IMG/VR virus record: IMGVR_UViG_2579778919_000004
Location: 1 to 9,156 of that record
From: a virus
Taxonomy: Duplodnaviria; Heunggongvirae; Uroviricota; Caudoviricetes
Length of the DNA: 9,156 nt
Reading direction: 5' to 3' (one strand)
The translations under genes were made by a program, and so were the position numbers. This document shows, piece by piece, positions 3,261 to 9,156 of the stretch. Each line of letters opens with the position of its first letter. Position 1 is the first letter of the stretch. The notes beneath the pieces are model-generated. The model ran no database searches, was not told where the DNA came from, and worked only from the letters and a program-made list of their open reading frames with translations.

Positions 3261-3481
3261 CGTGCCGCCTCTCGCTGGATTGTCTTGTGGGCTCGCAACA
3301 TATCGCGGGATTTTCCGGACAAAACCGTCTTCATGAAGAACATTCCACTGCGGTTTGCAACTATTCCTGGAGTGCAGATCAGCGTGGCGTCTACCACCCG
3401 GTTATGTTTACGGAATTCAAACACCGTGCTGGTGATAACGATGTTCGCCACGGCGCCGTAGTCCTGGTATTGGATTTTCAT
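3257..3481 (-). CDS. Hypothetical small phage protein, 74 aa
   Basis: ATG at 3479-3481 preceded by GAGGAG with an 8-nt spacer; overlaps the stop of the upstream clamp-like gene (ATGA). Confidence 0.7.
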   Translation of the reverse strand: MKIQYQDYGAVANIVITSTVFEFRKHNRVVDATLICTPGIVANRSGMFFMKTVLSGKSRDMLRAHKTIQREAAR

Positions 3482-4044
3482 GCCAGATGCTCCTCAACAA
3501 TTTTGAAAGCATCATCACGGCATGGCATCACGACGAACTCAGGGTTACCGTATGTAGTGTTGATCACTGGATCGAACTGAATGCGTACCGCTCCAGCCTC
3601 ACCGGAAGGGCGTAACTGGATGGGAATAAACTTTCGCTCGCGACCAAACATCTTTTCCGGATAGCTGAGGTATTCAGCCTGGATAACCGGATTGATACTG
3701 AAATCCACTTTTTTCGGGATGACGCGTTCCATATCAGGAAAACGACCATCAACAAGTTTGATGCCAGTGATCAAGATCCGACGCTCGAACGTGTCGCGGT
3801 GAATGGCAAAGGCTTCTTTGTTGAATACCAGTTCAGTGGTTTCCGCTTTCGCCGGAACCGGTCCTTCAAACTGGACGATGATGTTTTTCTTCGTCCGGAT
3901 GCCGTGCTCCATGCGCAGTGCTACATGCCCGTTAGTTGACTCGATATATTTCGGAGTGATGTGCACACCATTCAGGTAGTAACGGACATCATTTTTTGCA
4001 GCGCATACCAGAGCTGCGCGAATGAGTTTCGACTGGATGATCAT
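3478..4044 (-). CDS. Truncated DNA polymerase III beta sliding clamp (DnaN)-like protein, 188 aa, corresponding to clamp domain II plus an abbreviated domain III
   Basis: Three colinear motifs match E. coli DnaN as I recall it: DVRYYLNG (DnaN domain II, with flanking K-LI-A and T-GH-LA context), KLVDGRFPD..RV.PK (DnaN TSKLVDGRFPDYRRVLPK) and the C-terminal VVMP.R (DnaN ends AAYVVMPMRL). The ORF is about half the length of DnaN (366 aa) and lacks domain I. Strong tandem SD (GGAGGTGGAGG) before the ATG at 4042-4044. Confidence 0.7.
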   Translation of the reverse strand: MIIQSKLIRAALVCAAKNDVRYYLNGVHITPKYIESTNGHVALRMEHGIRTKKNIIVQFEGPVPAKAETTELVFNKEAFAIHRDTFERRILITGIKLVDGRFPDMERVIPKKVDFSINPVIQAEYLSYPEKMFGRERKFIPIQLRPSGEAGAVRIQFDPVINTTYGNPEFVVMPCRDDAFKIVEEHLA

Positions 4045-7605: not shown

Positions 7606-8298
7606 TCAGAAGATTGTTGATACCCAAAACAGTCTTCCTAAAACTTCAAGACTATCCATGTCTACTTCTTCGTCAGGGTATTCATCAGAGTTGTAGCTTC
7701 TGATTGTCACCTTATCTGGCCCAGATCTGTAGAGGATTTTTAACCTTTTCCATCCACCTTGGTTGATGCCGTAAATTTTACCATCCACGATACGCTTGTC
7801 ATGGCAGTTTATGGCAACAGTTGAGCCATCAGCGATCACTGGCTCCATGCTATTTCCGTGTGCAGCAAAGCATAGAACGCCATCACCATCACTATTAGCT
7901 CCCACCTTTCGCAATGTTGCTTTGGAAAATCTAAGTTTTTTTCCATTGTAATCATCATTAAGGGCGCTGCCATCTCCACATGCGAACTCGATATCCTTCA
8001 AGTAAGGCACCTCTACCTCATCATCCTCAAGCGGCGTTTGCTTATCCCATGGATCTATACCAAACATTCTTTGTTCTGGCGTTTTTGCTGGCCCCATGGT
8101 GCCTTCACCAGTGCTTAACCATATGGGATCTACATCCAGTGCTTTGGCTATATCCACGATTTTTCCGCTGGACTGAGCTTTTCCTGAGGTTAGTTTTTGT
8201 ATGGCCCCCTGGCTTACCCCAACCCTATGCGCTAATTGACTTTGAGTAGCCCCAGCATGAGCCATCGCCAGCCTTAGTCTTTCTGCAAGTGTGTTCAT
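7606..8298 (-). CDS. CI-like prophage repressor: N-terminal XRE-type HTH plus C-terminal S24 (LexA/UmuD-like) autopeptidase domain, 230 aa
   Basis: N-terminal HTH (QSQLAHRVGVSQGAIQKLTSG). C-terminal S24 signatures: GNSMEP (catalytic Ser in a G-x-S-M context) and downstream WKRLK (candidate catalytic Lys). Candidate autocleavage site Cys-Gly in FACGDG, as in UmuD. ATG at 8296-8298 preceded by GGAG. Divergent from a cro-like gene. Confidence 0.9.
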   Translation of the reverse strand: MNTLAERLRLAMAHAGATQSQLAHRVGVSQGAIQKLTSGKAQSSGKIVDIAKALDVDPIWLSTGEGTMGPAKTPEQRMFGIDPWDKQTPLEDDEVEVPYLKDIEFACGDGSALNDDYNGKKLRFSKATLRKVGANSDGDGVLCFAAHGNSMEPVIADGSTVAINCHDKRIVDGKIYGINQGGWKRLKILYRSGPDKVTIRSYNSDEYPDEEVDMDSLEVLGRLFWVSTIF

Positions 8299-8424
8299 CT
8301 TAGTATCTCCGATTTTTATGCATATTTAATACCACAGGATTAACCATGGCAAGCGGATAATACTTGATTAATTATTCCTTTGGTATTATTTTATATCTTT
8401 AATATTAATACTAAGGGCTTTGTT
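8299..8424. promoter_or_regulatory. Divergent immunity control region (OR analogue) with candidate PRM (leftward) and PR (rightward) promoters and repeated TAATAC-type operator half-sites
   Basis: AT-rich 126-bp intergenic region between the divergent repressor and cro-like genes. TAATAC or its complement occurs at ~8327, ~8358, ~8383 (complement) and ~8406. Imperfect palindromes: TAATACCACAGGATTA (~8327-8342), GGATAAT..ATTATTCC (~8355-8378), and CCTTTGGTATTA with TAATACTAAGGG (~8377-8417). Candidate PR: TTGATT (~8364-8369), 17 nt, TATTTT (~8387-8392). Candidate PRM on the minus strand: TTGCCA, 17 nt, TTAAAT (+ strand ~8347-8352 and ~8324-8329). Confidence 0.55.
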
Positions 8425-8667
8425 ATGACTGATGAGGTGTTTGAATCCCCAATGGCGAAAGCCGTGTACGTTGCTGGTGGTCAAAGTTCGCTTGCTAAAA
8501 AGGTTGGCGTTACGCAAGGGGCCGTCTGGAAGTGGGTCAGGGGGATCAAGAAAGTTTCTCCGGTCCATGCAGTGGCAGTATCAAACGCAGTTAATGGAAT
8601 TGTTAAGCCTCATGAACTGCGGCCTGATTTGCCGACTCTTTTCCCGCACCCGGGCAATGAGGTGTGA
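8425..8667 (+). CDS. Cro-like / YdaS-family HTH regulator, 80 aa
   Basis: ATG at 8425 preceded by AAGGG with a 7-nt spacer; the track start at 8380 is a TTG inside the operator region and was rejected. The segment AVYVAGGQSSLAKKVGVTQGAVWKWVRG ... ELRPDL resembles Rac prophage YdaS as I recall it (VVGGQSALARLLGVSPPSVNQWIKG ... ELRPDI). Divergent from the repressor. Confidence 0.8.
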   Translation: MTDEVFESPMAKAVYVAGGQSSLAKKVGVTQGAVWKWVRGIKKVSPVHAVAVSNAVNGIVKPHELRPDLPTLFPHPGNEV

Positions 8668-8668
8668 T

Positions 8669-8878
8669 ATGTCGCACTCAATCACTACCGAAAACCAAAT
8701 TAAGCAATTGGATATCGATTATCGCGATCCGCGCGGTGTGATTGTGCATGTCACCGGCTGGAATCGGGATAAGCAGCAGGTGTATTTCACCAGGCAGAAT
8801 TATCCGCATGAATGTATGCAGCCTGTCTGGAAGTTCCAACAATATTTTACGAAGGTCTCGGAGGCGCAAAATGCGTGA
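8669..8878 (+). CDS. Hypothetical small early protein, 69 aa
   Basis: ATG at 8669-8671 lies 1 nt after the cro-like stop and is preceded by GAGG with a 6-nt spacer. The longer track ORF from 8432 overlaps the cro-like gene in another frame and was rejected. No recognised domain. Confidence 0.6.
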   Translation: MSHSITTENQIKQLDIDYRDPRGVIVHVTGWNRDKQQVYFTRQNYPHECMQPVWKFQQYFTKVSEAQNA

Positions 8879-9156
8879 TTACGGAAAGGTGCCGTCTGAG
8901 TTTTGGTTGGACCAAAACGGCAACAAATGGAAAGTGCCCACGATCAAAGGTCGCCTGAAAATGCGCGTACCCTGCCATCGCGCACTACGCGAATTTGTTC
9001 TTTGGCGCGACGGTTTCAAATGCCGTCATTGTGGTAGTCAAGACCGCATTAAATTGGTCGCAGATCACATTGTATCGCGACGTAACGGTGGTGCTCACCA
9101 CCCAGACAACATGCAATGTTTGTGTGATTCCTGCAATGCGCGCAAGGCTTCCCTAG
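8871..9156 (+). CDS. HNH endonuclease family protein, 3'-truncated by the window edge
   Basis: ATG at 8871 preceded by GGAGG with a 6-nt spacer; overlaps the previous gene by 8 nt. Manual translation: MRDYGKVPSEFWLDQNGNKWKVPTIKGRLKMRVPCHRALREFVLWRDGFKCRHCGSQDRIKLVADHIVSRRNGGAHHPDNMQCLCDSCNARKASL. It has the C-x2-C ... D-H ... N ... H ... C-x2-C arrangement of the HNH motif. Confidence 0.8.
   Translation, partial: MRDYGKVPSEFWLDQNGNKWKVPTIKGRLKMRVPCHRALREFVLWRDGFKCRHCGSQDRIKLVADHIVSRRNGGAHHPDNMQCLCDSCNARKASL

What the first reader, a model, noticed from the sequence alone, without database searches (positions are those of the whole stretch)
8871..9156. HNH endonuclease as the third gene of the early-right operon
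HNH nucleases in lambdoid phages are more often found next to the terminase or as homing endonucleases. An HNH gene translationally overlapping the cro-proximal small ORF is unusual. It may participate in replication initiation or host DNA attack, or be a mobile intron-less homing element. The gene is truncated by the window, so the full domain architecture is unknown.
Basis: partly seen in the sequence, partly recalled or inferred. Interest (0 to 1): 0.4.

Follow-up and report, generated by a model that had tools for sequence, protein, structure and literature searches.

The report
Small HNH nuclease before replication initiator
The window ends in a real, intact gene for a small DNA-cutting (HNH) enzyme that sits directly in front of the phage's replication-initiator gene, at a recombination joint, and most likely behaves as a mobile "selfish" nuclease cassette, though a helper role in replication is not excluded.

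Summary
An ORF starting at ATG 8871 overlaps the stop of the preceding DUF4222 gene by 8 nt and encodes a complete zinc-finger HNH domain (Pfam HNH E=8e-10). Only a 26-aa, poorly conserved C-terminal tail lies beyond the window; the full protein is 121 aa with no further domain.

In 20 near-identical prophage loci the next genes are a 336-aa lambda-O-like replication initiator, a primase-helicase and Q.

The gene belongs to a compact, conserved HNH subfamily. In most distant relatives examined it abuts the start of a replication-initiator gene, and these initiators belong to at least five families. Two relatives are fused to an initiator domain.

Its first ~20 codons are homologous to the 5' end of "type-B" (DnaD-like) initiator genes. 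Near-isogenic prophages (99.9% identical flanks) carry either [HNH + type-A initiator N-domain] or [type-B N-domain].

Occupancy is sporadic: 0/80 type-B loci and 10/80 loci of another initiator family carry it. The gene is under purifying selection.

Best reading (~0.5): a free-standing, homing-type nuclease cassette at a boundary of genetic exchange. Main rival (~0.25): an origin-nicking replication accessory. Cleavage and homing are untested.

The parts
7606..8298 (-). cI-like repressor (HTH + S24 peptidase). It defines the immunity region from which the rightward operon diverges.
   Evidence: Pfam Peptidase_S24 E=7e-15, HTH_3 E=1e-8, Phage_CI_repr.
8327..8417 (.). Three operator-like repeats (TAATACCAnAGGAwTAA type) between the repressor and cro genes. 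This is the presumed OR/PR region that drives the operon containing the HNH gene.
   Evidence: Inverted and direct repeats at 8327-8343, 8372-8388 and 8406-8417. No consensus sigma-70 promoter was called by the strict scan, so the promoter is inferred from the layout.
8425..8667 (+). cro-like HTH gene (80 aa), first gene of the rightward operon.
   Evidence: Pfam YdaS_toxin E=1.3e-17, P22_Cro weak; PHROG 35 transcriptional repressor E=1.6e-22.
8669..8878 (+). DUF4222 gene (69 aa), second gene. It starts one base after the cro stop and occupies the position of lambda cII.
   Evidence: Pfam DUF4222 E=1e-12; phrog_1343 E=9e-29. It is conserved upstream of both HNH-containing and HNH-less replication cassettes.
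8860..8864 (+). Shine-Dalgarno GGAGG, 6 nt upstream of the HNH start codon.
   Evidence: Read from the sequence. The same SD and start serve the type-B initiator in HNH-less relatives.
8871..8891 (+). First seven codons of the HNH ORF (MRDYGKV). They are identical in DNA to the first seven codons of the type-B initiator gene of HNH-less sister prophages and mark the left mosaic joint.
   Evidence: Junction comparison of window/L003 with L066; blastn breakpoints; N-terminal homology seen in 79 of 80 type-B loci.
8871..9156 (+). HNH endonuclease gene: 95 of 121 codons plus one base. It overlaps the DUF4222 stop by 8 nt and runs off the window end.
   Evidence: AF2 model pLDDT 88.5, with the nearest solved folds all HNH nucleases.
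9021..9146 (+). HNH catalytic core (residues 51-92): zinc-binding C51/C54 and C85/C88, D65-H66, N72, N80 and N89.
   Evidence: Pfam HNH match covers residues 51-92. These residues are invariant or nearly invariant in 74 homologues.

Best explanation
Shown:
- Window 8871-9156 is the 5' 79% of an intact gene for a 121-aa single-domain, zinc-finger HNH (His-Me finger, DH...N...N variant) endonuclease.
- It is the third gene of the rightward operon after cro and DUF4222 and overlaps the DUF4222 stop. In all close relatives its own stop overlaps the start of the replication-initiator gene. It should therefore be made early, together with the replication proteins.
- It belongs to a compact HNH subfamily whose genes sit directly 5' of replication-initiator genes of several unrelated families in temperate phages.
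- Its first ~20 codons are homologous to the 5' end of type-B (DnaD-like) initiator genes.
- It lies exactly at a mosaic joint. Near-isogenic prophages carry either [HNH + type-A initiator N-domain with TCAGTGAGTG repeats] or [type-B N-domain with other repeats].

Inferred:
- It is a free-standing, homing-type (selfish or semi-selfish) nuclease cassette.
- During co-infection, or recombination with a resident prophage, it would nick or cut HNH-less genomes at or near the initiator 5' end or origin. It would then be copied in by recombinational repair, dragging the adjacent origin-specificity module with it (intron-less homing / marker exclusion).
- Short repeats of the initiator's first codons on both sides would also allow its precise gain and loss.
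- Nuclease activity, target site and biased inheritance have not been tested.
For: 1. Intact enzyme under selection.
- Pfam HNH and HNH_5 both exceed their cut-offs.
- The catalytic and zinc residues are invariant in 74 homologues.
- The AF2 model has pLDDT 88.5 and its best PDB folds are HNH nucleases: 4h9d Gme nickase, ZRANB3 HNH, GVE2 HNH, McrA.
- pN/pS is about 0-0.25 in most allele pairs, up to 0.55.

2. Sporadic occupancy.
- The type-A initiator exists at 61% identity with DUF4222 directly overlapping it and no HNH (L061-L065, L092).
- 0 of 80 type-B initiator loci carry the HNH.
- 10 of 80 'RYRKIE'-type initiator loci carry it.

3. Position at exchange boundaries.
- L003 (with HNH) and L066 (without) are 98.8% identical to the left, as far as 53 nt into the ORF, and 99.9% identical (3 mismatches in 3,586 nt) to the right from initiator codon 167. 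Only the cassette differs.
- Homology between L194 (with HNH) and L196 (without) begins exactly at the initiator ATG.

4. The HNH moves independently of its neighbour.
- HNH proteins 60-77% identical to each other sit next to initiators of different families. For most HNHs compared, the nearest relative flanks a different initiator type.

5. Insertion scar.
- HNH residues 1-21 align with the first residues of type-B initiators (52-72% identity, E down to 2e-6).
- In L037 and L038 the same 12 nt (ATGCGTGAYTAC) start both the HNH gene and the initiator gene behind it.
- Residues 1-10 are disordered in the model.

6. Variants typical of invading nuclease genes.
- One relative has the HNH inserted in frame within a type-B initiator (P0141) and another has it fused in front (P0199).
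- PHROG 5718 combines an initiator N-terminus with an HNH.
- Gordonia phage Gsput1 has a 76-aa HNH remnant upstream of its initiator.

7. Literature frame.
- Phage homing-endonuclease genes cluster next to essential genes, including the replisome, and occupy boundaries of genetic exchange (PMC10448857).
Against: - The protein has no separate DNA-binding or target-recognition domain. Only about 45 residues lie outside the HNH core. Characterised free-standing homing endonucleases pair a nuclease domain with DNA-binding domains (PMC10448857). Small phage HNH enzymes are described as nicking enzymes encoded next to cos and terminase genes (PMC3592412).
- The subfamily is unusually well conserved (30 invariant positions among 22 sequences from different proteobacterial classes) and keeps one fixed position in front of unrelated initiator families. 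A sequence-specific homing enzyme should not find a common target there. A generic replication-linked function would explain this more simply.
- Fusions that tether the HNH to an initiator's origin-binding domain would aim it at the element's own origin. That is hard to reconcile with a purely selfish role.
- The cassette swap with sharp boundaries is also what ordinary homologous recombination between lambdoid modules produces.
- From sequence alone one cannot tell whether a nuclease gene actively homes, as stated in PMC10448857.
- The window itself stops before the initiator. Its downstream context is inferred from 20 loci with 93-100% identical HNH proteins.
Confidence: 0.5

Rival explanations
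1. Replication accessory nuclease. The HNH works with the initiator and helicase encoded just downstream. It would nick phage DNA at or near the origin, which appears to lie inside the initiator gene. The nick could provide a 3' end or relieve topology, for example to start rolling-circle or recombination-dependent replication that yields concatemers for packaging.
For: - The position immediately 5' of initiator genes is strictly conserved, usually with overlapping stop and start codons. This holds in most distant relatives examined and in isolated phages (BcepMigl gp21-gp22-gp23).
- It is co-expressed in the early operon with the initiator and primase-helicase.
- Fusions with the initiator origin-binding domain occur in both orders (P0141, P0199), as does PHROG 5718.
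- Conservation is high and selection is purifying.
- Five TCAGTGAGTG repeats lie within 250 bp inside the adjacent initiator gene (7 hits in the locus against 0.97 expected).
- The nearest solved folds include a nicking HNH (4h9d) and the fork-processing ZRANB3 HNH.
Against: - The gene is dispensable for every initiator family it accompanies: type-A without HNH, type-B 0/80, RYRKIE type 70/80 without.
- There is no co-diversification with initiator type.
- Lambda-O/DnaD-type initiators are not known to need a nuclease (general knowledge).
- No literature support was found in six full-text searches.
Confidence: 0.25
2. Exclusion weapon. The HNH would be an origin- or replication-module-directed nuclease used against competing phages, prophages or satellites that carry a different (HNH-less) replication cassette. 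This would be analogous to the Odn nucleases of ICP1 and some coliphages. It overlaps mechanistically with homing (marker exclusion), but here the nuclease would be selected for the benefit of the phage.
For: - Two alternative origin-specificity cassettes circulate in the same prophage population, and the HNH is linked to only one of them.
- Relatives combine an HNH with an initiator-type origin-binding domain (P0141, P0199). Odn has this architecture with a different nuclease domain (PMC10448857).
- The gene is expressed early.
Against: - The window protein carries no origin-binding domain, only a ~20-residue initiator-like N-terminal peptide that is partly disordered in the model.
- P0141 looks like a complete initiator with an inserted HNH rather than a dedicated weapon.
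- No satellite or competitor target was identified.
Confidence: 0.1
3. Packaging-associated HNH of the HK97 gp74 / GVE2 type. It would assist terminase in cos cleavage and merely be encoded far from the terminase.
For: - It is a small zinc-finger HNH of similar size.
- It shows weak sequence and fold similarity to GVE2 HNH (5h0m, E=1e-4, TM about 0.5) and Gme HNH.
- Many phages encode such an HNH next to cos and terminase (PMC3592412).
Against: - In the related loci whose held flanks reach the late genes (L001-L003), the gene lies in the early operon next to replication genes and 7-10 kb from them. In the other related loci examined its immediate neighbours are replication genes, never a terminase gene.
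- One relative (L002) uses a lambda GpA-type terminase with its own nuclease domain.
- The similarity to the packaging HNHs is no better than to the IscB, Cas9 or McrA HNH domains.
Confidence: 0.03
4. General DNA-attack enzyme: host chromosome degradation or McrA-like restriction of modified foreign DNA, as some automatic annotations suggest.
For: - JGI names many homologues 'McrA'.
- There is fold similarity to EcoKMcrA and ScoMcrA HNH domains.
- The gene is expressed early.
Against: - The McrA label is a generic label for the HNH domain.
- The protein lacks the modification-reading N-terminal domains of McrA enzymes; it is 121 aa against 280-530 aa for those chains.
- A host-attack role does not explain the fixed position in front of initiator genes or the fusions to them.
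- The gene sits in the early operon under the repressor-controlled region, so it should be silent in the lysogen (inference).
Confidence: 0.05

Closest known systems
Free-standing phage homing endonuclease genes (T4 Seg/Mob; ICP1 HNH and T5orf172 homing endonucleases) at boundaries of genetic exchange (Barth, Dunham & Seed 2023, PMC10448857)
   Same: - It is a nuclease gene wedged between or into essential genes, here the replication initiator.
- It is sporadically present among close relatives.
- It lies exactly at mosaic breakpoints.
- It is more conserved than, and phylogenetically uncoupled from, its flanks.
- Truncated and in-frame inserted variants exist.
   Different: - It is much smaller (121 aa) and has no recognisable DNA-binding module.
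- It occurs in temperate lambdoid prophages rather than large virulent phages.
- One fixed site type (the initiator 5' end) is used across unrelated initiator families.
- Homing activity is not demonstrated.
Small zinc-ribbon/zinc-finger phage HNH nicking enzymes next to cos/terminase (HK97 gp74, GVE2 HNHE 5h0m, Gme HNH 4h9d; Xu & Gupta 2013, PMC3592412)
   Same: - It has the same fold class and size, two CxxC pairs binding zinc, and a DH...N...H/N catalytic motif.
- These are the nearest solved structures.
   Different: - The genomic partner is the replication initiator, not terminase.
- It is encoded in the early operon.
- The last metal ligand is Asn (N89), not His.
- Sequence similarity is only at generic HNH level.
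Origin-directed nucleases (Odn) of ICP1 and coliphages: a homing-endonuclease-derived nuclease fused to an initiator RepA_N origin-binding domain (PMC10448857)
   Same: A nuclease is associated with initiator sequences. Relatives P0141 and P0199 literally fuse the HNH to an initiator origin-binding domain.
   Different: - Odn uses a T5orf172 nuclease and a full RepA_N domain.
- The window protein has only a ~20-residue initiator-like N-terminal peptide.
- No target element is known.
Lambda early-right replication module (cro-cII-O-P, with ori inside O)
   Same: - The cro-like gene comes first.
- The two-domain initiator has a C-domain about 50% identical to O proteins of mEp043, Sf101 and g341c.
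- Repeats lie inside the initiator gene.
- The N-domain plus repeats are exchanged as a specificity cassette.
   Different: - DUF4222 stands in place of cII.
- An HNH gene is inserted before the initiator.
- A Toprim/AAA_25 primase-helicase replaces P.
ShiLan-type in-frame HNH insertion elements in actinophage genes (Arsenault et al. 2025, PMC11855218)
   Same: An HNH endonuclease gene is embedded in, or overlaps, a phage DNA-metabolism gene without an intron or intein. It shows a homing-like distribution.
   Different: ShiLan lies inside a methylase gene and is read in another frame. Here the HNH is an upstream ORF that borrows the initiator's first codons.

Membership tests
HNH / His-Me finger endonuclease (Pfam PF01844, PF14279) | Profile match above the curated cut-off | tested here: met
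   HNH 39.1 bits (cut-off 21.4) and HNH_5 31.9 bits (cut-off 27.5) on the 95-aa window fragment. The same families match the 121-aa full protein.
HNH / His-Me finger endonuclease (Pfam PF01844, PF14279) | Catalytic motif: general-base His (DH), structural Asn, and a third metal-ligand His/Asn | tested here: met
   D65-H66, N80 and N89 are present in the window and invariant in 74 homologues. The last position is Asn, so this is an HNN variant.
HNH / His-Me finger endonuclease (Pfam PF01844, PF14279) | Structural zinc site formed by two CxxC pairs | tested here: met
   C51-x2-C54 and C85-x2-C88. C85 and C88 are invariant; C51 and C54 are present in at least 90% of homologues.
HNH / His-Me finger endonuclease (Pfam PF01844, PF14279) | Beta-beta-alpha-metal fold | tested here: met
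   AF2 model pLDDT 88.5, with strands 62-66 and 81-85 followed by helix 86-94. The top Foldseek PDB hits are all HNH nucleases, though E-values are modest (7.8e-3 and weaker; TM 0.47-0.55).
HNH / His-Me finger endonuclease (Pfam PF01844, PF14279) | Metal-dependent DNA nicking or cleavage | not testable with these tools
   Needs purified protein and a nuclease assay.
Free-standing homing endonuclease gene | Presence/absence polymorphism among closely related genomes at the same locus | tested here: met
   L003 against L066 has 98.8% and 99.9% identical flanks. Type-A initiators occur without HNH. Occupancy is 0/80 and 10/80 in two initiator families.
Free-standing homing endonuclease gene | Located in or next to a conserved essential gene and at a recombination boundary | tested here: met
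   It abuts the initiator start codon in most distant relatives examined. The breakpoints coincide with the ends of the gene.
Free-standing homing endonuclease gene | Separate DNA-binding / target-recognition module giving a long target site | tested here: not met
   The protein has 121 aa and no domain other than HNH in Pfam, PHROGs or NCBIfam. The N-terminal ~45 residues form one hairpin and one helix packed on the core.
Free-standing homing endonuclease gene | Cleavage of the nuclease-less allele and nuclease-dependent super-Mendelian inheritance | not testable with these tools
   Requires in vitro cleavage mapping and phage crosses.
Terminase-associated HNH (HK97 gp74 type) | Gene adjacent to the terminase genes / cos site | tested here: not met
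   The gene is in the early operon, followed by initiator, primase-helicase and Q. Terminase or late genes start at least 7 kb downstream in L001-L003. No terminase gene neighbours the HNH in any related locus examined.
Terminase-associated HNH (HK97 gp74 type) | Functional and physical cooperation with terminase in cos cleavage | not testable with these tools
   Biochemical assay needed.
Origin-directed nuclease (Odn type) | One polypeptide combining a nuclease domain with an initiator-derived origin-binding domain | tested here: not met
   The window protein lacks such a domain. Only relatives P0141 and P0199 have it.
Lambda-type replication module | Initiator with an O-like C-domain, and repeats (candidate iterons) inside its own gene, directly downstream | tested here: inconclusive
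   This is met in 20 loci whose HNH is 93-100% identical to the window's. The window ends before this gene, so for this genome it is inferred.

The most novel reading that the evidence does not exclude
The HNH may be a conserved but optional component of temperate-phage replication-initiation machinery. It would be recruited by the initiator, through its initiator-like N-terminus or in the fused forms, and nick at the origin inside the initiator gene. That nick would trigger the change from theta to rolling-circle or recombination-dependent replication. This would parallel the way gp74-type HNH proteins turned out to be components of packaging machines.
Probability: 0.2. Interest if true: 0.75.

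Novelty: new variant of a known kind. Interest (0 to 1): 0.45.

Why it matters
How lambdoid phages exchange replication-origin specificity modules, and what marks the exchange joints, is a classic question in phage mosaicism. This locus shows a nuclease gene sitting on such a joint and carrying a copy of the neighbouring gene's first codons. That pattern fits nuclease-driven exchange and would extend the 'nucleases at boundaries of exchange' picture from large virulent phages to temperate prophages of Enterobacteriaceae.

The near-isogenic prophage pairs with and without the HNH offer a ready experimental system for crosses, H66A mutants and cleavage mapping.

If the enzyme instead helps replication, it would be a new accessory factor for O/DnaD-type initiators. 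It would also bear on the unresolved theta-to-sigma switch.

On the practical side, the public gene call for this protein (142 aa) probably starts 21 codons too early. In addition, at least one downstream initiator gene is missing from the gene calls held for its contig.

Tried and rejected
- Chance ORF: rejected on profile scores, conservation and pN/pS.
- Longer start at ATG 8808, as in the 142-aa public call P0001: rejected. Homologues start at MRDY, a GGAGG lies 6 nt upstream of 8871, and the extra 21 codons overlap DUF4222 out of frame.
- Hidden extra domains beyond the window: rejected. The full length is 121 aa.
- Split initiator in mycobacteriophage Tweety (gp74 + HNH gp75 against the intact ArcusAngelus gp78): no sequence homology between them, so this is not a clean split-gene case. 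It is another cassette swap in which one version carries an HNH.
- Genome-contig scan for near-identical type-A initiators without HNH: this found only distant relatives (34-59% identity over the aligned part, apart from one 31-residue fragment), all without HNH. It gave no clean empty site for type A at above 85% identity.
- Exact-match search for the window's own contig in IMG/VR: only the related contig of L008 was found. The true downstream sequence of this genome was not obtained.
- Sequence search of the initiator against solved structures: nothing useful.
- NCBIfam: no specific family for the HNH, the initiators or DUF4222.
- Promoter and terminator scans: uninformative, at chance level.
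- Six literature searches found no description of an HNH gene upstream of lambdoid initiator genes. The library lacks most subscription-journal papers, so prior description cannot be excluded.
Full report
**1. What is in the window**

Positions 8871-9156 hold an ORF that starts at ATG 8871 and runs in frame to the window end (95 codons plus one base).

A GGAGG lies 6 nt upstream (8860-8864). The start overlaps the TGA stop (8876-8878) of the preceding 69-aa ORF by 8 nt (ATGCGTGA).

The translated fragment is MRDYGKVPSEFWLDQNGNKWKVPTIKGRLKMRVPCHRALREFVLWRDGFKCRHCGSQDRIKLVADHIVSRRNGGAHHPDNMQCLCDSCNARKASL. It matches Pfam HNH (E=8.3e-10, 39.1 bits against a cut-off of 21.4) and HNH_5 (31.9 bits against 27.5). 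It also matches more than 20 PHROG HNH families.

The signature residues are all present: C51/C54, D65-H66, N72, N80 and C85/C88-N89.

Upstream genes:
- a cro/YdaS-type HTH gene (8425-8667);
- a DUF4222 gene (8669-8878);
- on the other strand, an S24 cI-like repressor (7606-8298);
- three operator-like repeats between repressor and cro (8327-8417).

Further left lie an integrase, an excisionase and early-left genes.

**2. Completing the gene**

The database holds a protein identical over all 95 residues (P0001, named for Enterobacter roggenkampii among other sources). Its 142-aa call starts at an upstream in-frame ATG, equivalent to window 8808.

Three observations place the real start at 8871:
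- homologues begin at MRDY;
- the Shine-Dalgarno sequence precedes 8871;
- the extra 21 codons overlap DUF4222 out of frame.

This gives a 121-aa protein. Only a 26-aa, poorly conserved tail lies beyond the window, and no other domain is present.

An AlphaFold2 model of the window fragment built with 74 homologues is confident (pLDDT 88.5). Residues 1-10 are disordered. A hairpin (11-21) and a helix (34-46) pack on a beta-beta-alpha core.

The nearest solved folds are HNH nucleases: Gme nicking HNH 4h9d, the ZRANB3 HNH domain, GVE2 HNH and the McrA enzymes. Scores are modest, as expected for a domain this small. Sequence search of the PDB gives only generic HNH relatives (IscB, GVE2, Cas9).

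**3. What follows the gene**

Three genomic loci (L001-L003) and 17 IMG/VR loci (L004-L020) carry an HNH 93-100% identical to the window's. The window matches L001-L003 at 97% nucleotide identity over 8641/8656-9154.

In all 20 loci the order is the same:
- DUF4222;
- HNH;
- a 336-aa protein that overlaps the HNH stop by 14 nt;
- a 623-aa Toprim_2/AAA_25 primase-helicase;
- antiterminator Q.

The 336-aa protein matches several PHROG 'replication initiation protein' families. Its C-terminal half (residues 167-336) is about 50% identical to the O proteins of mEp043, Sf101 and g341c.

Five copies of TCAGTGAGTG cluster within 250 bp inside the part of its gene that encodes the N-domain. The locus has 7 hits against 0.97 expected, and none of 100 shuffles reached 7. 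This resembles lambda, where ori lies inside O.

For the window's own genome this downstream context is inferred, because the source contig was not found.

**4. The subfamily and its fixed position**

The window protein has 163 relatives at E<=1e-5. Most are 92-110 aa long and 58-80% identical to it. The few whose sources name an organism come from Salmonella, Klebsiella, Acinetobacter, Massilia and Rhodospirillaceae.

In a library clustered at 50% identity only 12 clusters reach E<=1e-30, so this is a compact, well-conserved subfamily.

I examined 18 distant viral loci (L021-L040). In 15 of them the gene that abuts or overlaps the HNH stop is a replication-initiator, DnaD-like or primosomal protein, assigned by PHROG or Pfam match or by its N-terminal class. 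Two more (L034, L040) are only probable initiators. The one exception (L039) has a second nuclease, of HNH_3 type, followed by helicase and primase genes.

The initiators fall into at least five N-terminal classes:
- type A: MARIRxIKPEFW;
- type B: MRDYGKxxxxFW;
- M[AS]RYRKIExxxW;
- DUF1376;
- WLRLW.

The same layout appears elsewhere:
- a Salmonella diarizonae prophage (cI - cro - YdaT - HNH - type-A initiator - DnaB);
- Acinetobacter (cI - cro - 91-aa ORF - HNH - initiator - DnaB);
- other genomes;
- isolated phages: BcepMigl gp21 (HNH), gp22 (replication protein) and gp23 (DnaC-like loader); Gordonia phage Gsput1, with a 76-aa HNH remnant before its initiator; and mycobacteriophage Tweety, with an initiator-like gp74 followed by HNH gp75.

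No related locus examined has a terminase gene next to the HNH.

The arrangement is therefore not a one-off. It is absent from the classical lambdoid phages. The HNH part finds no match in 5,426 complete E. coli genomes and no relative above 45% identity in 50,697 phage records.

**5. Presence and absence, and the mosaic joint**

Seventeen IMG/VR loci (L066-L069 and L071-L083) have the same or nearly the same DUF4222, primase-helicase and (in all but L083) Q (up to 100% amino-acid identity), often the same cro, and the same initiator C-domain. They lack the HNH and have a different initiator N-domain, type B.

L003 (with HNH) and L066 (without) compare as follows:
- to the left they are 98.8% identical, as far as 53 nt into the ORF;
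- to the right they are 99.9% identical (3 mismatches in 3,586 nt), starting at initiator codon 167;
- the variable cassette is 829 bp (HNH residues 8-121 plus the type-A N-domain with its repeats) against 489 bp (the type-B N-domain with different repeats, GAAGGGGCT).

At the left joint the first 21 nt of the HNH ORF (ATGCGTGATTACGGAAAGGTG, MRDYGKV), together with the upstream ribosome-binding region, are identical to the start of the type-B initiator gene.

More distant type-A initiators (61% identical; L061-L065 and a Pantoea genome) follow DUF4222 directly with no HNH. Ten further type-A relatives in bacterial genomes also lack it.

Among the 80 best type-B initiator loci none has the HNH. 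Among 80 loci of the RYRKIE type, ten have an HNH-family gene ending at the initiator start and 70 do not.

In one pair from that family with diverged initiators (about 79% nucleotide identity), L194 with HNH and L196 without, homology begins exactly at the initiator ATG.

**6. The borrowed 5' end**

In 79 of the 80 HNH-less type-B loci, HNH residues 1-21 align with the initiator's own first 18-29 residues at 52-72% identity, with E-values down to 2e-6. An example is MRDYSTVSPQFWFDRTGKKW (HNH) against MRDYGKVSPHFWIGRTGKEL (initiator).

Where an HNH precedes a type-B initiator (L037, L038), both genes begin with the same 12 nt, ATGCGTGAYTAC. The HNH gene is thus bracketed by a direct repeat of the initiator's first four codons.

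The window's codons 9-16 also resemble the same codons of the type-A initiator, 73% identical over 22 nt at the same offset from the ATG.

I read this as a scar. An HNH gene entered the 5' end of an initiator gene, kept that gene's translation start, and left a duplicated start for the initiator behind it. Such repeats would also allow precise loss and gain of the cassette. This reading is inference.

**7. Independence from the neighbour, and fusions**

HNH proteins that are 60-77% identical to each other lie next to initiators of different classes. For most of the HNHs compared, the nearest relative flanks another initiator type.

Two proteins from the representative library are fusions:
- P0141: type-B initiator N-domain (1-141), then HNH (220-316), then a C-terminal tail;
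- P0199: HNH (31-118), then a type-B N-domain (131-282).

PHROG 5718, an 'HNH endonuclease' family, matches both the type-A initiator N-terminus and the HNH in adjacent parts of its profile.

**8. Selection**

The eight distinct alleles differ mainly by synonymous changes. The window differs from the others by 4-8 synonymous and 0-2 non-synonymous changes in 95 codons. Pairwise pN/pS is 0-0.25 in most pairs, up to 0.55, and the extra non-synonymous changes appear only when the 26-aa C-terminal tail is included in the comparison. The gene is therefore maintained, not decaying.

**9. Interpretation**

The following are shown: an intact HNH gene, placement in the early operon, fixed synteny with initiators, sporadic occupancy, location at exchange boundaries, a 5' end shared with type-B initiator genes, and the existence of fusions.

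The published picture that fits best is that phage nuclease genes of homing type cluster beside essential genes, including replisome genes, and occupy boundaries of genetic exchange (Barth, Dunham & Seed 2023, PMC10448857).

I therefore favour a free-standing, homing-type cassette that spreads by cutting HNH-less alleles and being copied in with the adjacent origin-specificity module (confidence about 0.5).

Several points count against a purely selfish reading:
- the protein has no separate DNA-binding module;
- small phage HNH enzymes are described as nicking enzymes encoded next to cos and terminase genes (Xu & Gupta 2013, PMC3592412);
- conservation is unusually high;
- the position is constant in front of unrelated initiator families;
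- the fusions would point the nuclease at the element's own origin.

These points keep alive the main rival, an optional origin-nicking accessory of the initiation machinery (about 0.25). An Odn-like exclusion role is a further possibility (about 0.1). A packaging role (about 0.03) and a general DNA-attack role (about 0.05) have little support.

Barth et al. themselves caution that sequence data alone cannot show whether a nuclease gene homes.

**10. Novelty and score**

The enzyme class and the idea of nucleases at mosaic boundaries are both known. Three things appear to be undescribed in the literature I could search:
- a conserved small-HNH subfamily nested at the 5' end of replication-initiator genes of temperate phages;
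- its sharing of the initiator's first codons;
- its alternation with an HNH-less origin cassette in near-isogenic prophages.

A recent survey of 314 lambdoid phages mentions only sporadic HNH genes elsewhere in the genome (PMC12315714).

I rate this a new variant of a known kind, with interest 0.45. It is moderately interesting to phage specialists and directly testable with the natural pairs of prophages with and without the HNH.

Noticed in passing
L003 10633-10879 (inside the 336-aa initiator gene, downstream of the window's end in related prophages): Five copies of TCAGTGAGTG (one inverted) lie within 250 bp of the part of the gene that encodes the initiator N-domain. The locus has 7 hits against 0.97 expected by chance. 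These are candidate origin iterons inside the initiator gene, as in lambda O.
   Followed up: partly
L003 10086-10914 versus L066 3513-4001: Two alternative origin-specificity cassettes sit in otherwise 98.8-99.9% identical prophages. One is the type-A N-domain (plus HNH) and the other is the type-B N-domain with its own GAAGGGGCT repeats. The right breakpoint is sharp, at initiator codon 167, the junction between the N- and C-domains.
   Followed up: yes
window 8808-8870; P0001: The public protein record for this gene (142 aa, 'HNH endonuclease signature motif containing protein') probably starts 21 codons too early, at an ATG that overlaps DUF4222 out of frame. Family-wide conservation supports the start at 8871.
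   Followed up: yes
L107 5332-6255 (Salmonella enterica subsp. diarizonae contig): A 307-aa type-A, O-like initiator ORF between the HNH and DnaB is absent from the gene calls held for this contig, leaving an apparent 890-bp gap.
   Followed up: partly
P0141 (452 aa) and P0199 (406 aa), from the representative library: These are natural fusions of this HNH subfamily with a type-B initiator origin-binding domain, in both orders. Their genomic context could not be looked up with the tools allowed.
   Followed up: partly
window 8669-8878: A DUF4222 gene occupies the slot where lambda has cII. It is conserved (97-100% amino-acid identity) in front of both cassette types, always overlapping the next gene's start. 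Its function is unknown.
   Followed up: no
window 3478-4044 (minus strand): A 188-aa early-left ORF shows a weak, sub-threshold match to the central domain of the DNA polymerase III beta clamp (E=0.002, 18.8 bits against a cut-off of 27).
   Followed up: no
window 8302-8673: The cro region matches Aeromonas phage AsXd-1 at 96.8% nucleotide identity over 372 bp (hit H1). That is an unexpectedly close match between an enterobacterial-type prophage and a phage listed with an Aeromonas host.
   Followed up: no
L039 6007-6779: In one viral contig the HNH is followed by a second, unrelated nuclease gene (HNH_3 / zinc-binding loop type) instead of an initiator, and then by helicase and primase-polymerase genes. 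Two nuclease genes are stacked at the head of a replication module.
   Followed up: partly
L103 2287-2517 (Gordonia phage Gsput1 gp44): A 76-aa protein annotated 'HNH endonuclease' directly upstream of the replication initiator retains only the C-terminal half of an HNH motif. It looks like a decayed copy.
   Followed up: partly
L104 1853-2941 versus L106 1989-2936 (mycobacteriophages Tweety and ArcusAngelus): Between conserved flanks, Tweety carries an initiator-like gp74 plus HNH gp75, where ArcusAngelus carries a single RepA-like initiator of the MxRIRSTKPEFW type. This is another replication-cassette swap in which one version includes an HNH.
   Followed up: partly
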